This document shows positions 3,001 to 52,100 of a stretch of DNA of 56,011 nucleotides, one piece after another. Each line of letters begins with the position of its first letter. Position 1 is the first letter of the stretch. This stretch comes from Girardia tigrina. Lineage: Eukaryota. The position numbers were made by a program. Location: contig MQRK01223771.1 of assembly GCA_001938485.1 (NCBI GenBank), positions 33,231-89,241 on the forward strand. The letters run 5' to 3'.

Positions 3001-6000
3001 CAAATGCTCAGAAAATCATTTTTTATTGCATTTTTATTTTTACGTTTTCATTCCCAGTCTCTTAATCCTTTGGAAAGGTTTGATCAATCGTCCAGCAGCC
3101 TCAAAAAACCCATCCATGAATCTTCAGTTGTCAATATTAAAATCACTCATTTGTCAGTCGAAATCGGTATTTTATTTAAATAGATTTTATTAATTTACAA
3201 GATACAAATCTTAAAAATAAATTTATTTAATAAATTATTTTAAAATATGTTTTTTTCTATTGAAAAAAATTTTTAAAAAAATCGAAAATAAATTTAATAC
3301 AAAATTATTTTTGTTTATTATTTTAATAATTAAAATTAACTGTTTTTAAACAAAACATACTCTAGAGGTTAATTTTAAAATTTTAAAAATAATAAACCAA
3401 CTTATTTTTTAAATCTAATTATTTTATTAATAATAAATTGATAAAAAAAACAATAAAGTGAAAAATATCTTAGTAAAAAAATTTTAAAAAAATACACAAG
3501 AAATGAAAATTTGGATTTATTTTTTTAATTTAATATTGTTTGTCATAACTTGATTACTCAATGACAATCATTATTAATTATGAAATAATAATGATAAATT
3601 AATTATAAAAAATATAAAAAAAATTAAATTAAAAAAATATGTTGACTTAAAAAGAAAAAATACACAAAAATAATTTAATTTATTTTTTAACTTATAATTT
3701 TTTTGTTATAGTTTGAATACTAATATTACTTCATTACTTTGATGAAAATGTCCTTTCATTTTTCATTCAACCCTTCCTTTTGTTTTGCATATTGATTTAA
3801 AATTCAACGTACCATTTTGATAAAATGGTTCATTTATTTTATATATTTTATTTAAAATTATTGGATTACACAAAGCCTATTTGATAAAATTGTAATTTTT
3901 TTTACAATTGGAAGAAGATTTTATAAATATAATTTCTGGGTTAGAGATAAGAATACAGCCTTTTTTCAAAATAAAAAAAATTATTAAACAATAAAACATT
4001 TAATAAAATCTAAAAATTTTAAAAAAGAATAAAATAAAAAAAGAAGAAAATTTTTGTTATTATTTTTAAATTTTTTAATTCGTACTCGTGATTTATATAA
4101 AGCTTAAAGGACAAAGACAAATAGATGAGCTAGAAGCTATTGAGTTTCTACAAGCGAGAGGCCTACTCAAAAACACAGTTATATGTGAATCGTATTCATA
4201 TCCCTTGAAGCTCCAACAGTACGAAAGGCAGCAGAATGGCTATATCCGGGGTTGTGGTTCATTTATTAATAAGACTTCTAATAGAACAGCAATTTTTCTA
4301 AAGAATTCTAAATTCGGATTGAAAGAACTGTTAAATTTGATGTTCAAATTCAACGAGATTGAATTGGTACACCAGAGCAGACTCAAACATTGCTAGAAAC
4401 ATAGTTTCTAGGTGGTTTAATGTATTCAAGTTTACACTGGAGAAAAGCCTTTAGGCAGACTTTGAGGAAGAAACGGTGCAACTATTTAAATTGATGAATG
4501 GGTGATTGCCAAACAAAAGTGCAATCGTAGATGTGTAATTCTTCAACAATGGCTCTTTGGAGCTGTTGATGGGATTAATAATTATTTTATTTTTGTGAGG
4601 AATATTTTGAATGTTTGATGTTTTGTGTTTGAACGTGCATGTTGATTTGGAAATGTATCTCTCCTACCCAGATGGATGATTAATATTTGAATTCTTTTTA
4701 TCTAAAAATATGTTATGTTTAAATTTATTTTTAATTTCAAATAATTTTACAATTTTAAAAGTTAATTATTTTTTACAATTTTTAATAAATAATTCAAATT
4801 AATCTTTTTTAAACAATTAATAATCATTTTAATTTCTATCCAATAAGTTTTTAATAAATATTTTATTAAAATATTTTTTTCCCCATTTGCTAAAAAATAA
4901 TAAGAATTAATTCATTAATCAATTTAGTTTAGAATGCAATCGTACGAAAGCTTTAACAAAGATTGTCTTCAGGACAATCAAAATTGTTGTTTAAATAAAA
5001 ATATGAAAAGTCAAATTGTTCTTAATAATTTTAAAGTACATTGATAATAGAAGCAGTTACATTGAAAAGTTTAATAATTGATTCACTTACTACATGATTA
5101 ATTCCAACCACTGGAGTTTATATATGACTATTTTTAATAAGGACCTTGGTTTTAATCACGAGAATTTGGCAGATCCTAATTCTGGTGCACATTCTAATAA
5201 CATCGAAAACCTTTGAATGTTATTAAAACAGGCACTAAGAGAAAGTATTTGAGAAAAACATGAGTCATTTGGATCTTTATTTGGTAGACTTCTGTATAAG
5301 GCAGAAATATTAAAAAAATGTAAATTTGAAAAAAGTCTGTATTTTAATCTCTCACCAGTTTTTTTTCTTGAGAGCAAATTAATTATGGTCGTGGACATGA
5401 TATTTATATTGTATATGTAGGAATTTTTATGGCTTGAAAATTGCCTTGTTATTAACTATGAAGTGAAGAGGAACTTTTTTATGCTTAAGTTGTTGGACAA
5501 AGATAGGAATTTCAATCGTGAAAATATTCGAAACTAGGATTGTGTTCTACAATAAATTGTGAACTTAAAAATTGAATTTTTTAGATGCTTAATATATTTA
5601 TTATATCAATTTTAACAATCAATTTCAAATTGTTTTTGTCAATTTTATAGCGCTATAAAATGAAAATAAAGTAATTTTTTTGGGTGGCCCTAATTATCAG
5701 TAATTTTCTAACCTAAAGTCCCAGGATTTTTATTTTCTTTATAGCTGATAATTACATAGTCAAAAAATAGAAATATTTATTATTTCAAGAGAACATTTTC
5801 CAATATTAGAAACGTTTTTTTCATTTTCATGGTGTTTACCATGTTTATATTTTTATAAAATATTTTTTTTATTTTTTATTATTTTTGAAACTTGCAACCT
5901 GGCAAGAAATAATTGTTGCACTTATTAAAAGACTTTATTTTGTTCTTTCCAAACATAATTTAATTAATTTTCCTAAAATTATAAATTACGTACTCAATTA

Positions 6001-49197: not shown

Positions 49198-52100
49198 AGT
49201 AATTATTATACAGTATACAGTAATGGAATCCATTACGATTGAGAGATTTAACCTTTTTGCCACAACATAATCGTGGTAATTCTAGAGCTATTATTTAACT
49301 GAGAAACGGCTACCACATCCACAGAATCCAGCAAGTGAGAAAATTATCCAATACCGATTCGGGGAGGTAGTATAAAAAAATAACAATATGGACTCTAATG
49401 GTTTCATAATTGCAATGAGAATATTTTAAATACTTTATCAAGTATGTCTGGGGCTAGCAGTCGCGGTAATTTCAGCTCCAAAACCCTAACGGGTTTTTAT
49501 CTCAAAAATTAGGAACTACATTAACATTTTACAAATGTTGTAAATAACTTCAATAATTAGAACTTCAATTGTTTTCAAAAATGTTGAAACAGTAGAAGCG
49601 AGGAGTTGTATGTTTTACAAGTAAAGTGACAGGAAAAAGAAAATGAATATGTTCAATTTAAGTCTTAATTAAAACAAAAAATGAATAAAATTCGAAAATC
49701 ATTTTAAGGAATCAAAATTATCTTTGAAAGAATTAAATATTTTAATTATTATTGAACAACATAATTCATACTAATAAACTTTCCCTCTTCCTTGGGAAAA
49801 AACTTCATTTCTCACTTCTGTTCTCTCCAAAAATTTATTATATATATATTTATTTAAATAATTATATTATATTTGGTTTGAAAATCCTAATTCATTTTGT
49901 AGATGTCACAGTTTCCGGTAGATAACAATGAGGTTTATACGGATTATCAAAAGGAAATCTTATTTAACTGTTTGTCGAAATCTCAACAAAACCTTTCCGT
50001 GGACAAACACTGTCCCGAAGAAGAATGTAAACAAGACTTAACATGTTTTTATAAAACTTATGATCGAAATAATTTTCCGACCGAGCCTCTCATAGTGAAC
50101 GGTTACTGTTATACGCCGAATAATTTAAAATAATTACAACATTTGTTTTAATAGTGCTAGATTTAATTATTTGTTTATTTTATTTATTAGAATAAAATAT
50201 CACATTTTCATGAAAAAAAAACAAATCGTTAATTTGAATATCTATCTGTAAATATTTTATGACTTATTAATGAAAATGAATGTTTAAGTCAGGTTATATT
50301 AGCTCAAGATGTTTGGAGAGGATATTTTTCCCAAGGGTTAAAAATAATATAGAAATAAAATAAATTACAAGTAGACATTATATTAATTTTTGTTACTCTA
50401 AAAAAATTATGGGCGGTGCCAGTTAAATATCTTTGCTGTTTTTTTCAAGTGAAAAAAAATCCAAAGATATAATTACTCGTTTTCTGTCTTCGAATTGACT
50501 TACATCAAAAATTAATGTAAAAAAATGGATTTGACATTTATTCTTGCAAAATTCCAAACGAAAGTAGTAGTAAAGAAGGAAAAGGTGTAAAAAACATTCA
50601 GTGAATCTTGTCAAACCAGTCGAATTCGGTGGTGATAACATTTAAAAACTGTTGAATTCGATTTGTTCTATTTTGTAAAATTTTCATTTTGGAGAAAAAT
50701 AAAAAGTGATCTGAAACATTTAATAAGTATAAAATAATAATTGACTCCATATTTTATTTATTTATTATATTTCACTTAGCGGGACGAAGTAAGAAATTGT
50801 TTATTATACAAAATTGCTAATAGAAATTTTAATTTTCTTTAGATATTACCAATTTATATTACTATTAAATATTATTTTACGTGATATGTTCAATAAGTAT
50901 TCAACCTGACAAAGAAAACGAAGTCCAAAAAGGTCCAATCTTAATGTAGGTAGGGATATCCATTTCGGTTTCAGACCATTTCACTAGTCAAGAAGTTGAG
51001 TACGAAACTGGATCACAGTTTTCTGATATCCATGGATTTGTGCATAAAAATTCAATTAATTGTAATTGAATTAATACTGAAAGTTTTTATCGAATGTCTC
51101 CAATTATGAGCTCTTTGGATAGTTCATTCATCAGTTATGTAAGGGGTTTTTGTGACTTAAATTTTTGAATAATTAATTTCTAATATCATATTAATAATTA
51201 AATAATTTCAAATGATTTATTTATATAAATTTCTTAAAAAAAACTACGTTGTAAAATAAAAAAAATCATAATGTTTTATTTAAAATTGAAATAGTGTCAA
51301 TTTATATTAAAAGAATAATTATAATTGAATGTTTAACCAATTAACGAAGAATAAAATATTAAGAAATTTAATTTTAACAGTAGATGTACCATTCAAATAT
51401 TATAAAAGATCTAAAATTATATTTAAGTTAACTGGTTGTAGATCAATAATATTGAAATAACAACATTTAAATAATTTTAGATTACTAGAAATTGTTGCAA
51501 AATACTTTTAAAAATGATTTAAAATAGAACAGTTATTATTTAGATTTTTATAATGTATTTTGAAGATTTTTATAAAATAATAAAATCTTAATATATAAAT
51601 TAACGAAATAAAAAAATAAATTCAATTTTAATTAACGTTTTAATAAATAAGTTATTAGTATTATAATCCAGTATTTTTATGTATAATTAATCTGGTCAAA
51701 AAAAAAGAAAACAAAAGAAAAGTTCCCCAAGAAAAATTGTTTAAATAATTGTTATTGTTATAGAAATAAAATTTGGTGTTAATGAATTATAATTTTGATC
51801 AAGAACCCAACATGTCGACCATCGCCAGTAGCTCTGAACAACTAATTTCGAGGCTCATACCAGACAAATTTAGGTGACAAGATAATGTTGAAACATTCAT
51901 TTCGGCTTGCGCAAGATACTTCAAAGTGGTCAAAGTATCGGAAAGTATGCAAGAGATATTGGTAATTGGTTTACTGTCACACGAGCTCGTACCAATATAC
52001 GAAATCATGGGTCCCGAAGTGAAGGGATATGAAGCCCTTCTACCACAAGCTTTCCAGACGAAAAGCTCGTTAATGGAGGATTCGATAGAGGCGGTAAACT

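What the first reader, a model, noticed from the sequence alone, without database searches (positions are those of the whole stretch)
3004..50133. Hidden 8-exon neuregulin-like gene spanning 47 kb, mostly invisible to the ORF track
Seen: only two of the eight exons appear as ORFs, yet all eight join in frame to give SP-Ig-EGF-like-TM-tail, with about 2% of the span coding. Known: Ig plus EGF plus TM defines neuregulin-type EGFR ligands. Inference: a divergent lineage-specific ligand that automated annotation could miss or fragment.
[Added by the scan's program, not by the reader: the finding's places include an assembly gap (unread letters, written N; its length is only estimated) at 10926 to 10982, 20632 to 20681, 23256 to 23420, 23700 to 23873, 33599 to 33966, 35076 to 35213. 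Whether the letters on both sides are continuous or in frame is not known: test that first.]
Basis: partly seen in the sequence, partly recalled or inferred. Interest (0 to 1): 0.7.

Follow-up and report, generated by a model that had tools for sequence, protein, structure and literature searches.

The report
Fragmented Ig–EGF-like membrane protein gene
A probably real animal gene for a small membrane protein with an antibody-like domain lies in tiny exons across at least 35 kb of transposon-filled DNA and resembles known neuregulin-type growth-factor genes, but its growth-factor module and tail could not be confirmed.

Summary
The window (about 26% GC, full of transposon remnants, ten N runs) carries a + strand gene in small exons. 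Six (3004-38269) chain in phase with GT-AG borders and no junction stop. Exons 2 and 3 are complementary halves of one I-set Ig domain (Pfam positions 2-49 and 56-84 of 90; PDB hits). This is the solid core. Exon 1 is the only signal-peptide-like start upstream (1 of 26), and exon 6 is a clean transmembrane stretch.

The "EGF-like" exon 4 has four cysteines and a strong donor right after the fourth, which is the intron position typical of EGFR-ligand genes (PMC1618406, PMC11686035). It matches no EGF profile or structure. No canonical C-x-C-x8-C partner exists in the assembled sequence; the best local model gives non-canonical spacing.

The seventh exon cannot be identified (157 phase-compatible candidates). 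The 76-codon last exon is no better than 11 other frames.

No N run touches an exon, but four of six inter-exon intervals cross N runs.

Verdict: probably a divergent neuregulin-type (Ig-EGF) ligand gene, a known kind. The tail and the EGF identity are unproven.

The parts
3004..3166 (+). Exon 1: start codon, signal-peptide-like N-terminus and about 35 residues of linker; leaves in phase 1.
   Evidence: ATG at 3004 is the first in its frame, after a stop at 2989-2991. It is the only one of 26 ATG-started open frames (>=20 codons) upstream of exon 2 that passes a crude signal-peptide rule, and it has a single phase-1 GT donor, at 3166. The rule was written after I had seen the sequence. No Pfam match.
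6025..6199 (+). Exon 2: N-terminal half of an I-set Ig domain (B-strand Cys, C-strand Trp); phase 1 in, 2 out.
   Evidence: Pfam I-set E=2e-9, profile positions 2-49 of 90, above the curated cut-off. PDB best hit 5.2e-20, neurofascin. 3123 library proteins at E<=0.001. Acceptor is a T-rich tract plus CAG; donor AAG|GTTTGA.
12006..12115 (+). Exon 3: C-terminal half of the same Ig domain (Y-x-C F-strand motif); phase 2 in, 1 out.
   Evidence: Pfam I-set positions 56-84 of 90, E=0.0045. PDB best hit 1.6e-11, contactin-2. It is the only + strand frame in 2900-50300 with the F-strand motif. Seven residues bridge six unmatched profile positions at the junction.
32056..32149 (+). Exon 4: cysteine module, first part (C-x5-C-x4-C-x8-C); phase 1 in, 2 out. 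The donor GTGAGT comes two bases after the 4th Cys codon.
   Evidence: It is one of only 3 distinct open AG..GTRAGT segments on the + strand and has the highest GC of them, 0.45. Composition is at the 3rd percentile of AT-driven residues. No Pfam, PDB or Atlas support for EGF. Home-made EGF profile: E=1.5, rank 4 of 1670.
38052..38134 (+). Exon 5: cysteine module, second part, and juxtamembrane stretch. Preferred end is 38134 (donor GTAATA, two Cys, phase out 1).
   Evidence: GC 0.47-0.51; composition at the 1st-2nd percentile. No Pfam match. The choice between the two ends is inference.
38185..38269 (+). Exon 6: transmembrane segment of about 22 uncharged residues flanked by Lys and Arg/Ser; phase out 2. 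Alternative starts are 38196 and 38151.
   Evidence: One of 4 TM-like + strand frames in 2900-50300. It lies 50-95 nt downstream of exon 5. If not spliced, the frame ends one codon later, at a TAA.
49903..50133 (+).
   Evidence: Open frame and acceptor seen. No Pfam (16), no relatives (17), Atlas below 0.8 (40). One of 12 comparable frames, 28th percentile composition. It enters in phase 0 while exon 6 leaves in phase 2, so it needs an unidentified linking exon.

Best explanation
The locus is a protein-coding gene of an AT-rich animal genome. Its small exons are spread over at least 35 kb by long introns filled with DNA-transposon remnants.

The product is a type I membrane precursor made of:
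- a cleavable signal peptide,
- a short linker,
- one I-set Ig domain encoded by two exons,
- about 10 residues of spacer,
- a small disulfide-rich module split by an intron directly after its fourth cysteine,
- about 14 residues of spacer,
- a single transmembrane helix.

This is the layout of neuregulin-type (Ig-EGF) ligands of EGF receptors. The most likely mode of action is that of those ligands: display on the cell surface, or release of the ectodomain by juxtamembrane cleavage; the cysteine module contacts an EGFR-family receptor; the Ig domain tunes range or matrix retention.

SHOWN: the exon chain and its phases, and the Ig domain.
INFERRED FROM SEQUENCE PATTERN: the signal peptide, the TM, and the position of the intron after Cys4.
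INFERRED BY ANALOGY ONLY: EGF fold, shedding, receptor binding.

For: - Phase-consistent GT-AG chain of six exons with no stop at any junction.
- Exons 2 and 3 match complementary halves of the I-set profile (2-49 and 56-84 of 90) and many solved Ig domains. Among 1670 window frames compared with 150 Ig-rich proteins, they are the two strongest of the 6 frames that hit at E<=0.01 (2.7e-9 and 6.8e-5).
- Exon 1 is the only signal-peptide-like start (1 of 26) and has exactly one donor in the needed phase.
- Exons 4 and 5 are compositional outliers (1st-3rd percentile). They have good splice signals and overlap no intra-window repeat (0 self-hits for each of 7 exons).
- A donor directly after the 4th Cys, and a module close to the TM, are the two gene-structure criteria for ErbB ligands in PMC1618406 (passages). 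The Cys4/Cys5 intron is called a near-invariant feature in PMC11686035 (passages).
- Domain spacing resembles SISS-1 (Ig 11-109, EGF 119-158, TM 178-194).
- NRG-type is defined as EGF + I-set Ig + TM (PMC4914847).
Against: - Exon 4 has no similarity to any EGF: Pfam none at E<=10; PDB none at E<=10; Atlas best 0.78, to unrelated small Cys-rich peptides; generic EGF profile E=1.5, rank 4 of 1670.
- Four Cys in 30 residues occurs in 34 of 781 frames.
- No + strand frame between exon 4 and 49900 has C-x-C-x(5-12)-C. Of 22 AG-N-TGY sites, 5 have a second Cys and none is convincing.
- The best local model gives C4-x3-C5-x14-C6 plus a 7th Cys, with no Arg directly before C6.
- No related protein was found with exon 2 or exon 8 by word search. 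The exhaustive search with exon 2 returned only giant multi-Ig proteins.
- Four of six inter-exon intervals cross N runs.
- There is no transcript evidence.
- The joined product was not tested.
Confidence: 0.55

Rival explanations
1. The gene is real, but the protein is an ordinary single-Ig, single-pass membrane protein of the Ig superfamily (adhesion or co-receptor type). Its short cysteine-rich stalk is not an EGF domain and it is not an EGFR ligand.
For: Only the Ig domain has statistical support. Every test of exon 4 against EGF failed. The cysteine spacing is non-canonical in four of five intervals, measured against the usual ligand pattern, which I recall and did not retrieve. Cys density is not unusual (34 of 781 frames).
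Against: The intron directly after the 4th Cys and the position of the module next to the TM fit the ErbB-ligand gene signature. The order and spacing Ig - module - TM match SISS-1 and NRG-type ligands.
Confidence: 0.25
2. The exact eight-exon, 329-aa model of the first reader is right, including a linking exon 7 and the 76-codon last exon at 49903-50133.
For: 49903 follows a good acceptor and opens a 76-codon frame ending at 50133. The lengths add up to 329 aa if exon 7 is 94 nt (with exons 5/6 at 38052-38100 and 38196-38269) or 49 nt (other local models). One 94-nt and six 49-nt phase-compatible candidates exist.
Against: 157 phase-compatible candidates make an in-frame link certain by chance, and none stands out. 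The last exon is one of 12 similar frames and compositionally ordinary, with no homologue or family. AATAAA occurs 3.2 times per kb, so it supports no particular 3' end. That interval contains two N runs and at least one transposon remnant.
Confidence: 0.15
3. There are two unrelated pieces. The Ig exons (1-3) and the Cys/TM exons (4-6) belong to different genes, or were brought together by scaffolding across gaps.
For: The 19.9-kb interval between exons 3 and 4 holds four N runs and several transposons. Phase agreement between exons 3 and 4 has a one-in-three chance.
Against: The two groups share a strand and the right order. Exon 3 has a donor and no stop. Exon 4 is internal, with an acceptor and no start. 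Only 2 other candidate phase-1/phase-1 exons passed the filters in between, one of them inside the hAT ORF. The hAT pieces are collinear across two of the gaps.
Confidence: 0.1

Closest known systems
NRG-type EGF ligands as defined by Barberan et al. 2016 (PMC4914847): Drosophila Vein, vertebrate NRG1/NRG2, planarian Smed-nrg-1, Echinococcus EmNRG (PMC12963305)
   Same: One I-set/C2 Ig domain, then a single small cysteine module, then one TM, on a short precursor. A signal peptide is present, as reported for EmNRG. An intron interrupts the module after the 4th Cys, as reported for vein (PMC1618406).
   Different: The module is not recognised as EGF by any profile. Its spacing is non-canonical (x5, x4, x8, x3, x14) and there is no Arg directly before the 6th Cys. 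The tail has no Pfam match at all in the one tail exon tested, so no vertebrate-type intracellular neuregulin domain.
C. elegans Ig-EGF ligands SISS-1 (PMC11686035, passages read) and IGEG-2 (PMC12485627, PMC12593006: search listing and abstract starts only)
   Same: A small protein (SISS-1 is 274 aa) with an N-terminal Ig, an EGF-type module about 10 residues later, a TM about 15-20 residues after that, and an intron between Cys4 and Cys5.
   Different: [quoted passage not shown] Here a signal-peptide-like start is present, and the second half of the module is atypical or partly missing from the assembly.
EGF-type ligands (Spitz, TGF-alpha, LIN-3; Smed-egf-1 to -8)
   Same: A juxtamembrane cysteine module on a single-pass precursor, with the Cys4/Cys5 intron.
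   Different: They have no Ig domain.
Generic single-Ig membrane proteins of the Ig superfamily
   Same: The Ig halves hit contactins, neurofascin, Robo, titin and FGFR Ig domains equally well, so the Ig domain carries no NRG-specific signal.
   Different: Such proteins are not expected to carry a four-Cys exon ending right after its 4th Cys next to the TM.

Membership tests
NRG-type (Ig-EGF) EGFR ligand | Extracellular Ig (I-set / C2) domain | tested here: met
   Exons 2 and 3 match I-set positions 2-49 and 56-84 of 90. PDB hits down to 5e-20 and 1.6e-11.
NRG-type (Ig-EGF) EGFR ligand | A single EGF domain with six conserved cysteines (PMC4914847, PMC12963305) | tested here: inconclusive
   Exon by exon: no Pfam or PDB match, and the generic EGF profile gives E=1.5. 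The local models give 5 or 6-7 Cys with non-canonical spacing. The joined module was not scanned, and two N runs lie between exons 4 and 5. The result leans towards not met.
NRG-type (Ig-EGF) EGFR ligand | Intron between the 4th and 5th cysteine of the module (PMC1618406; PMC11686035) | tested here: met
   The GTGAGT donor comes two bases after the 4th Cys codon of exon 4. This is meaningful only if the module is an EGF.
NRG-type (Ig-EGF) EGFR ligand | Module placed close to a transmembrane segment | tested here: met
   The last module Cys lies about 14 residues before a stretch of about 22 uncharged residues in exon 6. The TM was judged by a simple hydrophobicity rule, not a dedicated predictor.
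NRG-type (Ig-EGF) EGFR ligand | Conserved Arg directly before the 6th cysteine (mentioned in PMC1618406) | tested here: not met
   In the six-Cys local model the residue before Cys6 is Val, and the Arg lies three residues earlier. Tomoregulins also lack this Arg, according to the same paper.
NRG-type (Ig-EGF) EGFR ligand | Binding to and activation of an EGFR-family receptor | not testable with these tools
   No receptor sequence of this organism and no assay were available.
Vertebrate NRG1/NRG2 | Intracellular neuregulin domain | tested here: not met
   The only proposed tail exon (49903-50130) has no Pfam match at E<=10. The real tail is unknown.

The most novel reading that the evidence does not exclude
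A strongly derived Ig-EGF ligand. Its receptor-binding module keeps the ancestral Cys4/Cys5 intron and the juxtamembrane position, but has re-spaced its last two disulfide loops (x3 and x14 instead of x1 and x8) and gained a seventh, juxtamembrane cysteine. That would be a new structural variant of the EGFR-ligand module, possibly with altered receptor use or acting as a membrane-tethered decoy.
Probability: 0.2. Interest if true: 0.5.

Novelty: new member of a known kind. Interest (0 to 1): 0.3.

Why it matters
If it is transcribed as modelled, this would be the NRG-type ligand, or one of them, of an AT-rich, transposon-laden animal genome. In flatworms and nematodes, ligands of this class govern stem-cell division, regeneration and stress responses (PMC12963305, PMC11686035; passages read).

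It also shows how a gene with 49-175-nt exons, about 2% coding, separated by introns of up to 20 kb and by assembly gaps, escapes ORF-based views. Only the split Ig domain gives a statistically firm handle.

The class itself is well known, so the value lies in annotation rather than in concept.

Tried and rejected
SECOND EGF EXON.
- Searched for AG-N-TGY sites. One search found 4 sites with a second Cys in 32150-38200. One search found 22 sites in 32150-49900, 5 with a second Cys.
- 32686 was rejected: pyrimidine tract 0.40, donor GTTATT, and another frame there reads like a transposase motif that I recall (Pfam gave nothing for neighbouring frames).
- 35719, 33028, 33298 and 42709 were rejected for short frames or poor signals. 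34242-34520 has no AG acceptor.

ALTERNATIVE DONORS INSIDE EXON 4. One, at the third Cys codon (GTAAGA, phase 1), gives a stop when joined to 38052 in the other frame, and no partner exon with C..C-x-C..C exists.

EXTRA EXONS. A search for extra phase-1/phase-1 exons in the 19.9-kb interval gave 2 candidates, one inside the hAT ORF. Extra Ig-like frames: 4 marginal single hits (E from 1e-4 to 7e-3 among 1670 queries). I checked two of them, and each hit only one protein and had no relevant Pfam family.

SEARCHES THAT LED NOWHERE.
- Word-based protein searches with exon 8 and exon 2: none.
- Exhaustive search with exon 2: the top 150 are all giant multi-Ig proteins, useless for orthology.
- ESM Atlas with exons 4 and 8: best scores 0.78-0.79, chance level.
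- Rfam: 0 hits; tRNA: 0.

ORGANISM. Not identified. The hAT search (71 hits) named only distant relatives from beetles, tunicates, fish and aphids. The 99%-identical hit is an unnamed record, which I did not fetch or use.

POLY(A) SIGNALS. Uninformative: 181 AATAAA on the + strand, 3.2 per kb.

NOT DONE, BY RULE OR BY CLOSURE.
- N runs were not filled.
- The viral and metagenome contig collections and paper supplements were closed.
- Genome contigs holds only bacteria and archaea and was not used.

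Full report
SETTING. The window is 56011 bases with 19-36% GC per 2 kb, about 26% overall. It has ten N runs. It holds many remnants of eukaryotic mobile elements, listed at the end. Rfam found no RNA family and ARAGORN no tRNA. It looks like intron-rich animal DNA. The organism could not be named.

This leaves the joint EGF test and a structure prediction open.

LOCATING THE EXONS. 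The finding gives no exon coordinates, so I rebuilt the model.
- The + strand frame at 3004 starts with a signal-peptide-like sequence, and the frame 49903-50130 ends at the stated 50133.
- A motif scan found a single Ig F-strand motif (frame 11989-12129) and four TM-like stretches, one of them at 38151-38270.
- A scan for Cys...Trp found the Ig B/C-strand frame 5985-6248.
- The frame 32040-32150 carries four cysteines.
- Reading the DNA gave these borders: E1 3004-3166, E2 6025-6199, E3 12006-12115, E4 32056-32149, E5 from 38052, E6 to 38269, and E8 49903-50133.
- All borders are AG/GT. The phases chain 0-1, 1-2, 2-1, 1-2, 2-x, x-2. No junction codon is a stop.

N RUNS. None lies in or within 756 nt of an exon, so no reading frame crosses a gap.
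- The intervals E2-E3, E3-E4, E4-E5 and E6-E8 contain 1, 4, 2 and 2 runs. Only E1-E2 and E5-E6 are gap-free.
- Interval lengths are therefore estimates. Scaffold continuity is unproven, and an exon could sit in unassembled sequence.
- Two observations favour collinearity. Successive hAT transposase pieces lie on both sides of the runs at 23256-23420 and 23700-23873. The run at 10926 starts exactly where a 40-bp terminal inverted repeat ends, which is a typical assembly break at a repeat.

WHAT IS SOLID. E2 matches the Pfam I-set profile at positions 2-49 of 90 (E=2e-9, above the cut-off). E3 matches positions 56-84 (E=0.0045).
- Seven residues at the junction cover the six unmatched profile positions.
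- Both halves hit many solved Ig domains: E2 down to 5.2e-20, E3 down to 1.6e-11.
- All 1670 window frames of at least 20 aa were compared with 150 Ig-rich proteins. Six frames hit at E<=0.01. E2 (2.7e-9) and E3 (6.8e-5) were the strongest. I checked two of the other four, and each hit only one protein, with no relevant Pfam family.
- One Ig domain split by a 5.8-kb intron, in matching phase, is far beyond chance.
- E1 is the only one of 26 ATG-started frames upstream of E2 that passes a crude signal-peptide rule. It has exactly one GT donor in the needed phase. The rule was written after I had seen the sequence.

THE CYSTEINE MODULE.
For it:
- E4 reads C-x5-C-x4-C-x8-C and ends two bases after the fourth Cys codon at a GTGAGT donor.
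- It is one of three distinct open AG..GTRAGT segments on the whole + strand and the most GC-rich of them.
- Its composition is at the 3rd percentile for AT-driven residues. It enters in the phase in which E3 leaves.
- Stein and Staros (PMC1618406, passages) characterise ErbB ligands by a splice site between the 4th and 5th cysteine and by placement next to the TM. [quoted passage not shown] Both criteria are met here in form.

Against it:
- E4 has no Pfam match at E<=10 and no PDB match at E<=10.
- Its Atlas neighbours score at most 0.78 and are unrelated small Cys-rich peptides.
- A generic EGF profile that I built from 73 segments of 22 proteins scores it E=1.5, rank 4 of 1670 frames.
- Four Cys within 30 residues occurs in 34 of 781 frames.

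THE SECOND HALF OF THE MODULE. No + strand frame between E4 and 49900 contains C-x-C-x(5-12)-C. None of the 22 AG-N-TGY sites gives a convincing exon. The only good continuation is at 38052, with GC about 0.5 and composition at the 1st-2nd percentile. Three local models fit:
- A: 38052-38100 plus 38196-38269. Five Cys in all.
- B: 38052-38100 plus 38151-38269.
- C: 38052-38134 (donor GTAATA), a 50-nt intron, then 38185-38269.

I prefer C, because 38101-38134 is as GC-rich as the exons and the donor is better. Model C gives C4-x3-C5-x14-C6, then a seventh Cys ten residues later, just before the membrane. That makes six-plus cysteines with the Cys4/Cys5 intron, but the spacing is non-canonical and there is no Arg directly before Cys6. 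An unassembled phase-2/phase-2 exon carrying a canonical C5-C6 loop in one of the two N runs between E4 and E5 cannot be excluded.

THE TM AND THE TAIL.
- E6 encodes about 22 uncharged residues flanked by basic residues.
- It leaves in phase 2, while 49903 enters in phase 0, so a linking exon is needed.
- Among 1259 open AG..GT segments in 38270-49902, 157 have the right phases. One is 94 nt and six are 49 nt, the lengths that would give 329 aa. None stands out.
- The 76-codon last frame is one of 12 + strand frames of at least 60 codons in that interval, and its composition is at the 28th percentile. In the whole window, 51 of 7861 frames reach 76 codons.
- It has no Pfam match, no relatives and no Atlas neighbour.
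- Without splicing, the frame ends one codon after 38269. AATAAA is too common (3.2 per kb) to mark an end.
- The tail is therefore unverified.

COMPARISON WITH WHAT IS KNOWN.
- Barberan et al. (PMC4914847, passages) define NRG-type ligands as EGF plus I-set Ig plus TM. They consider the class ancestral to Bilateria and found one in Schmidtea mediterranea (Smed-nrg-1).
- EmNRG of Echinococcus has a signal peptide, a C2 Ig domain, a six-Cys EGF and a TM (PMC12963305, passages).
- SISS-1 of C. elegans is a 274-aa Ig-EGF-TM protein with Ig 11-109, EGF 119-158 and TM 178-194. This is close to the spacing here: about 10 residues from Ig to Cys1, about 40 residues from Cys1 to Cys6 in model C, and about 14 residues to the TM.
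- For IGEG-2 and the Ig-domain notes (PMC12485627, PMC12593006, PMC12477552, PMC13014142) I saw only the search listing and abstract starts.
- No named NRG came back from any search, so there is no direct sequence comparison.

VERDICT. The gene is most likely real and of the NRG-type / Ig-EGF class (confidence 0.55). The main rival is a non-ligand Ig membrane protein (0.25). At best it is a new member of a known kind, and the interest is modest.

SURROUNDINGS.
Introns:
- A SWIM-finger element with 116-bp inverted ends, 7521-8257.
- An HSP70-like N-terminal fragment on the minus strand, 9491-9769.
- An element with 40-bp inverted ends, 9962-10925.
- A pogo/Tc5-type transposase on the minus strand, 13206-13902.
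- Mariner-type remnants on the minus strand at 17719-18222 and 46079-46704.
- A hAT element, 22443-24263.

Downstream of the finding, about 51878-54583 on the + strand, lies the virus-like stretch: an LTR-retrotransposon-like gag-pol remnant.
- It has a zinc knuckle, an aspartyl protease, a reverse transcriptase, and the first half of an RNase H-like domain.
- Its domain-bearing open frames differ in reading frame at least six times and are separated by at least one in-frame stop. One of the frame changes could be a native gag-pol shift.
- No integrase was found in the 5 frames tested downstream.
- It is degenerate, and it is only described here.

Noticed in passing
window 51878-54583 (+): This is the virus-like stretch, an LTR-retrotransposon-like gag-pol remnant. 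It has a zf-CCHC knuckle, an aspartyl protease (E=3.6e-10), RVT_1 (E=2.8e-18, plus a weaker second piece) and the first half of RT_RNaseH_2 (E=8.5e-14). Its coding capacity is split by at least six frame changes and at least one in-frame stop. No integrase was found in 5 downstream frames. It lies outside the finding's span and is described only.
   Followed up: partly
window 22443-24263 (+): A hAT-family transposase (ZBED5/SCAN-3-like relatives, 71 hits; C-terminal hAT dimerisation domain E=2.2e-9) sits in the 19.9-kb interval and is interrupted by two N runs. One unnamed database protein is 99% identical over 71% of the N-terminal piece, which suggests a young, multi-copy element. I did not fetch it, so as not to read gap letters.
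   Followed up: partly
window 12663-14080 (-): A pogo/Tc5-type DNA transposon remnant: DDE_1 E=1e-36 and HTH_Tnp_Tc5 E=5.5e-5, in separate open frames.
   Followed up: partly
window 17719-18581 (-) and 46079-46704 (-): Two mariner-type remnants. They match Transposase_1 at E=4.4e-6 and 9.6e-11, and the second also matches the Mos1 HTH_48 domain at E=4.5e-4.
   Followed up: partly
window 7521-8257: 116-bp inverted repeats (90% identical) flank an open frame with a SWIM zinc finger (E=9.7e-5). This looks like a small Mutator-like element.
   Followed up: partly
window 9962-10925: 40-bp inverted repeats (97.5% identical) flank transposase-like frames. The label 'mariner-like' rests on a motif I recall, and Pfam gave no hit. 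The right repeat ends exactly at the N run 10926-10982.
   Followed up: partly
window 9491-9769 (-): An open frame resembles the first 40 positions of the HSP70 profile (E=3.5e-4, just under the cut-off). It is probably a decayed gene fragment inside intron 2.
   Followed up: no
window 20407-20631 and 21762-21988: A 227-bp direct repeat, 97% identical. The first copy ends at the N run 20632-20681 and the second contains the single N at 21897. It is either the ends of an element or an assembly duplication.
   Followed up: no
window 38476-38583 and 40079-40187: 109-bp direct repeats (80% identical) enclose about 1.5 kb with long open frames that have no Pfam family. This may be a decayed element between the TM exon and the proposed tail.
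   Followed up: no
window 15311-16000: A GC-richer (0.44-0.54) internally repeated stretch that reads as His/Gly/Asn-rich or Val/Thr/Ala-rich low-complexity peptide on either strand. It shows self-similarity at 15432-15826.
   Followed up: no
window 48905-49263: A TA-rich microsatellite surrounds the N run 49014-49147, 756 nt upstream of the proposed last exon.
   Followed up: no
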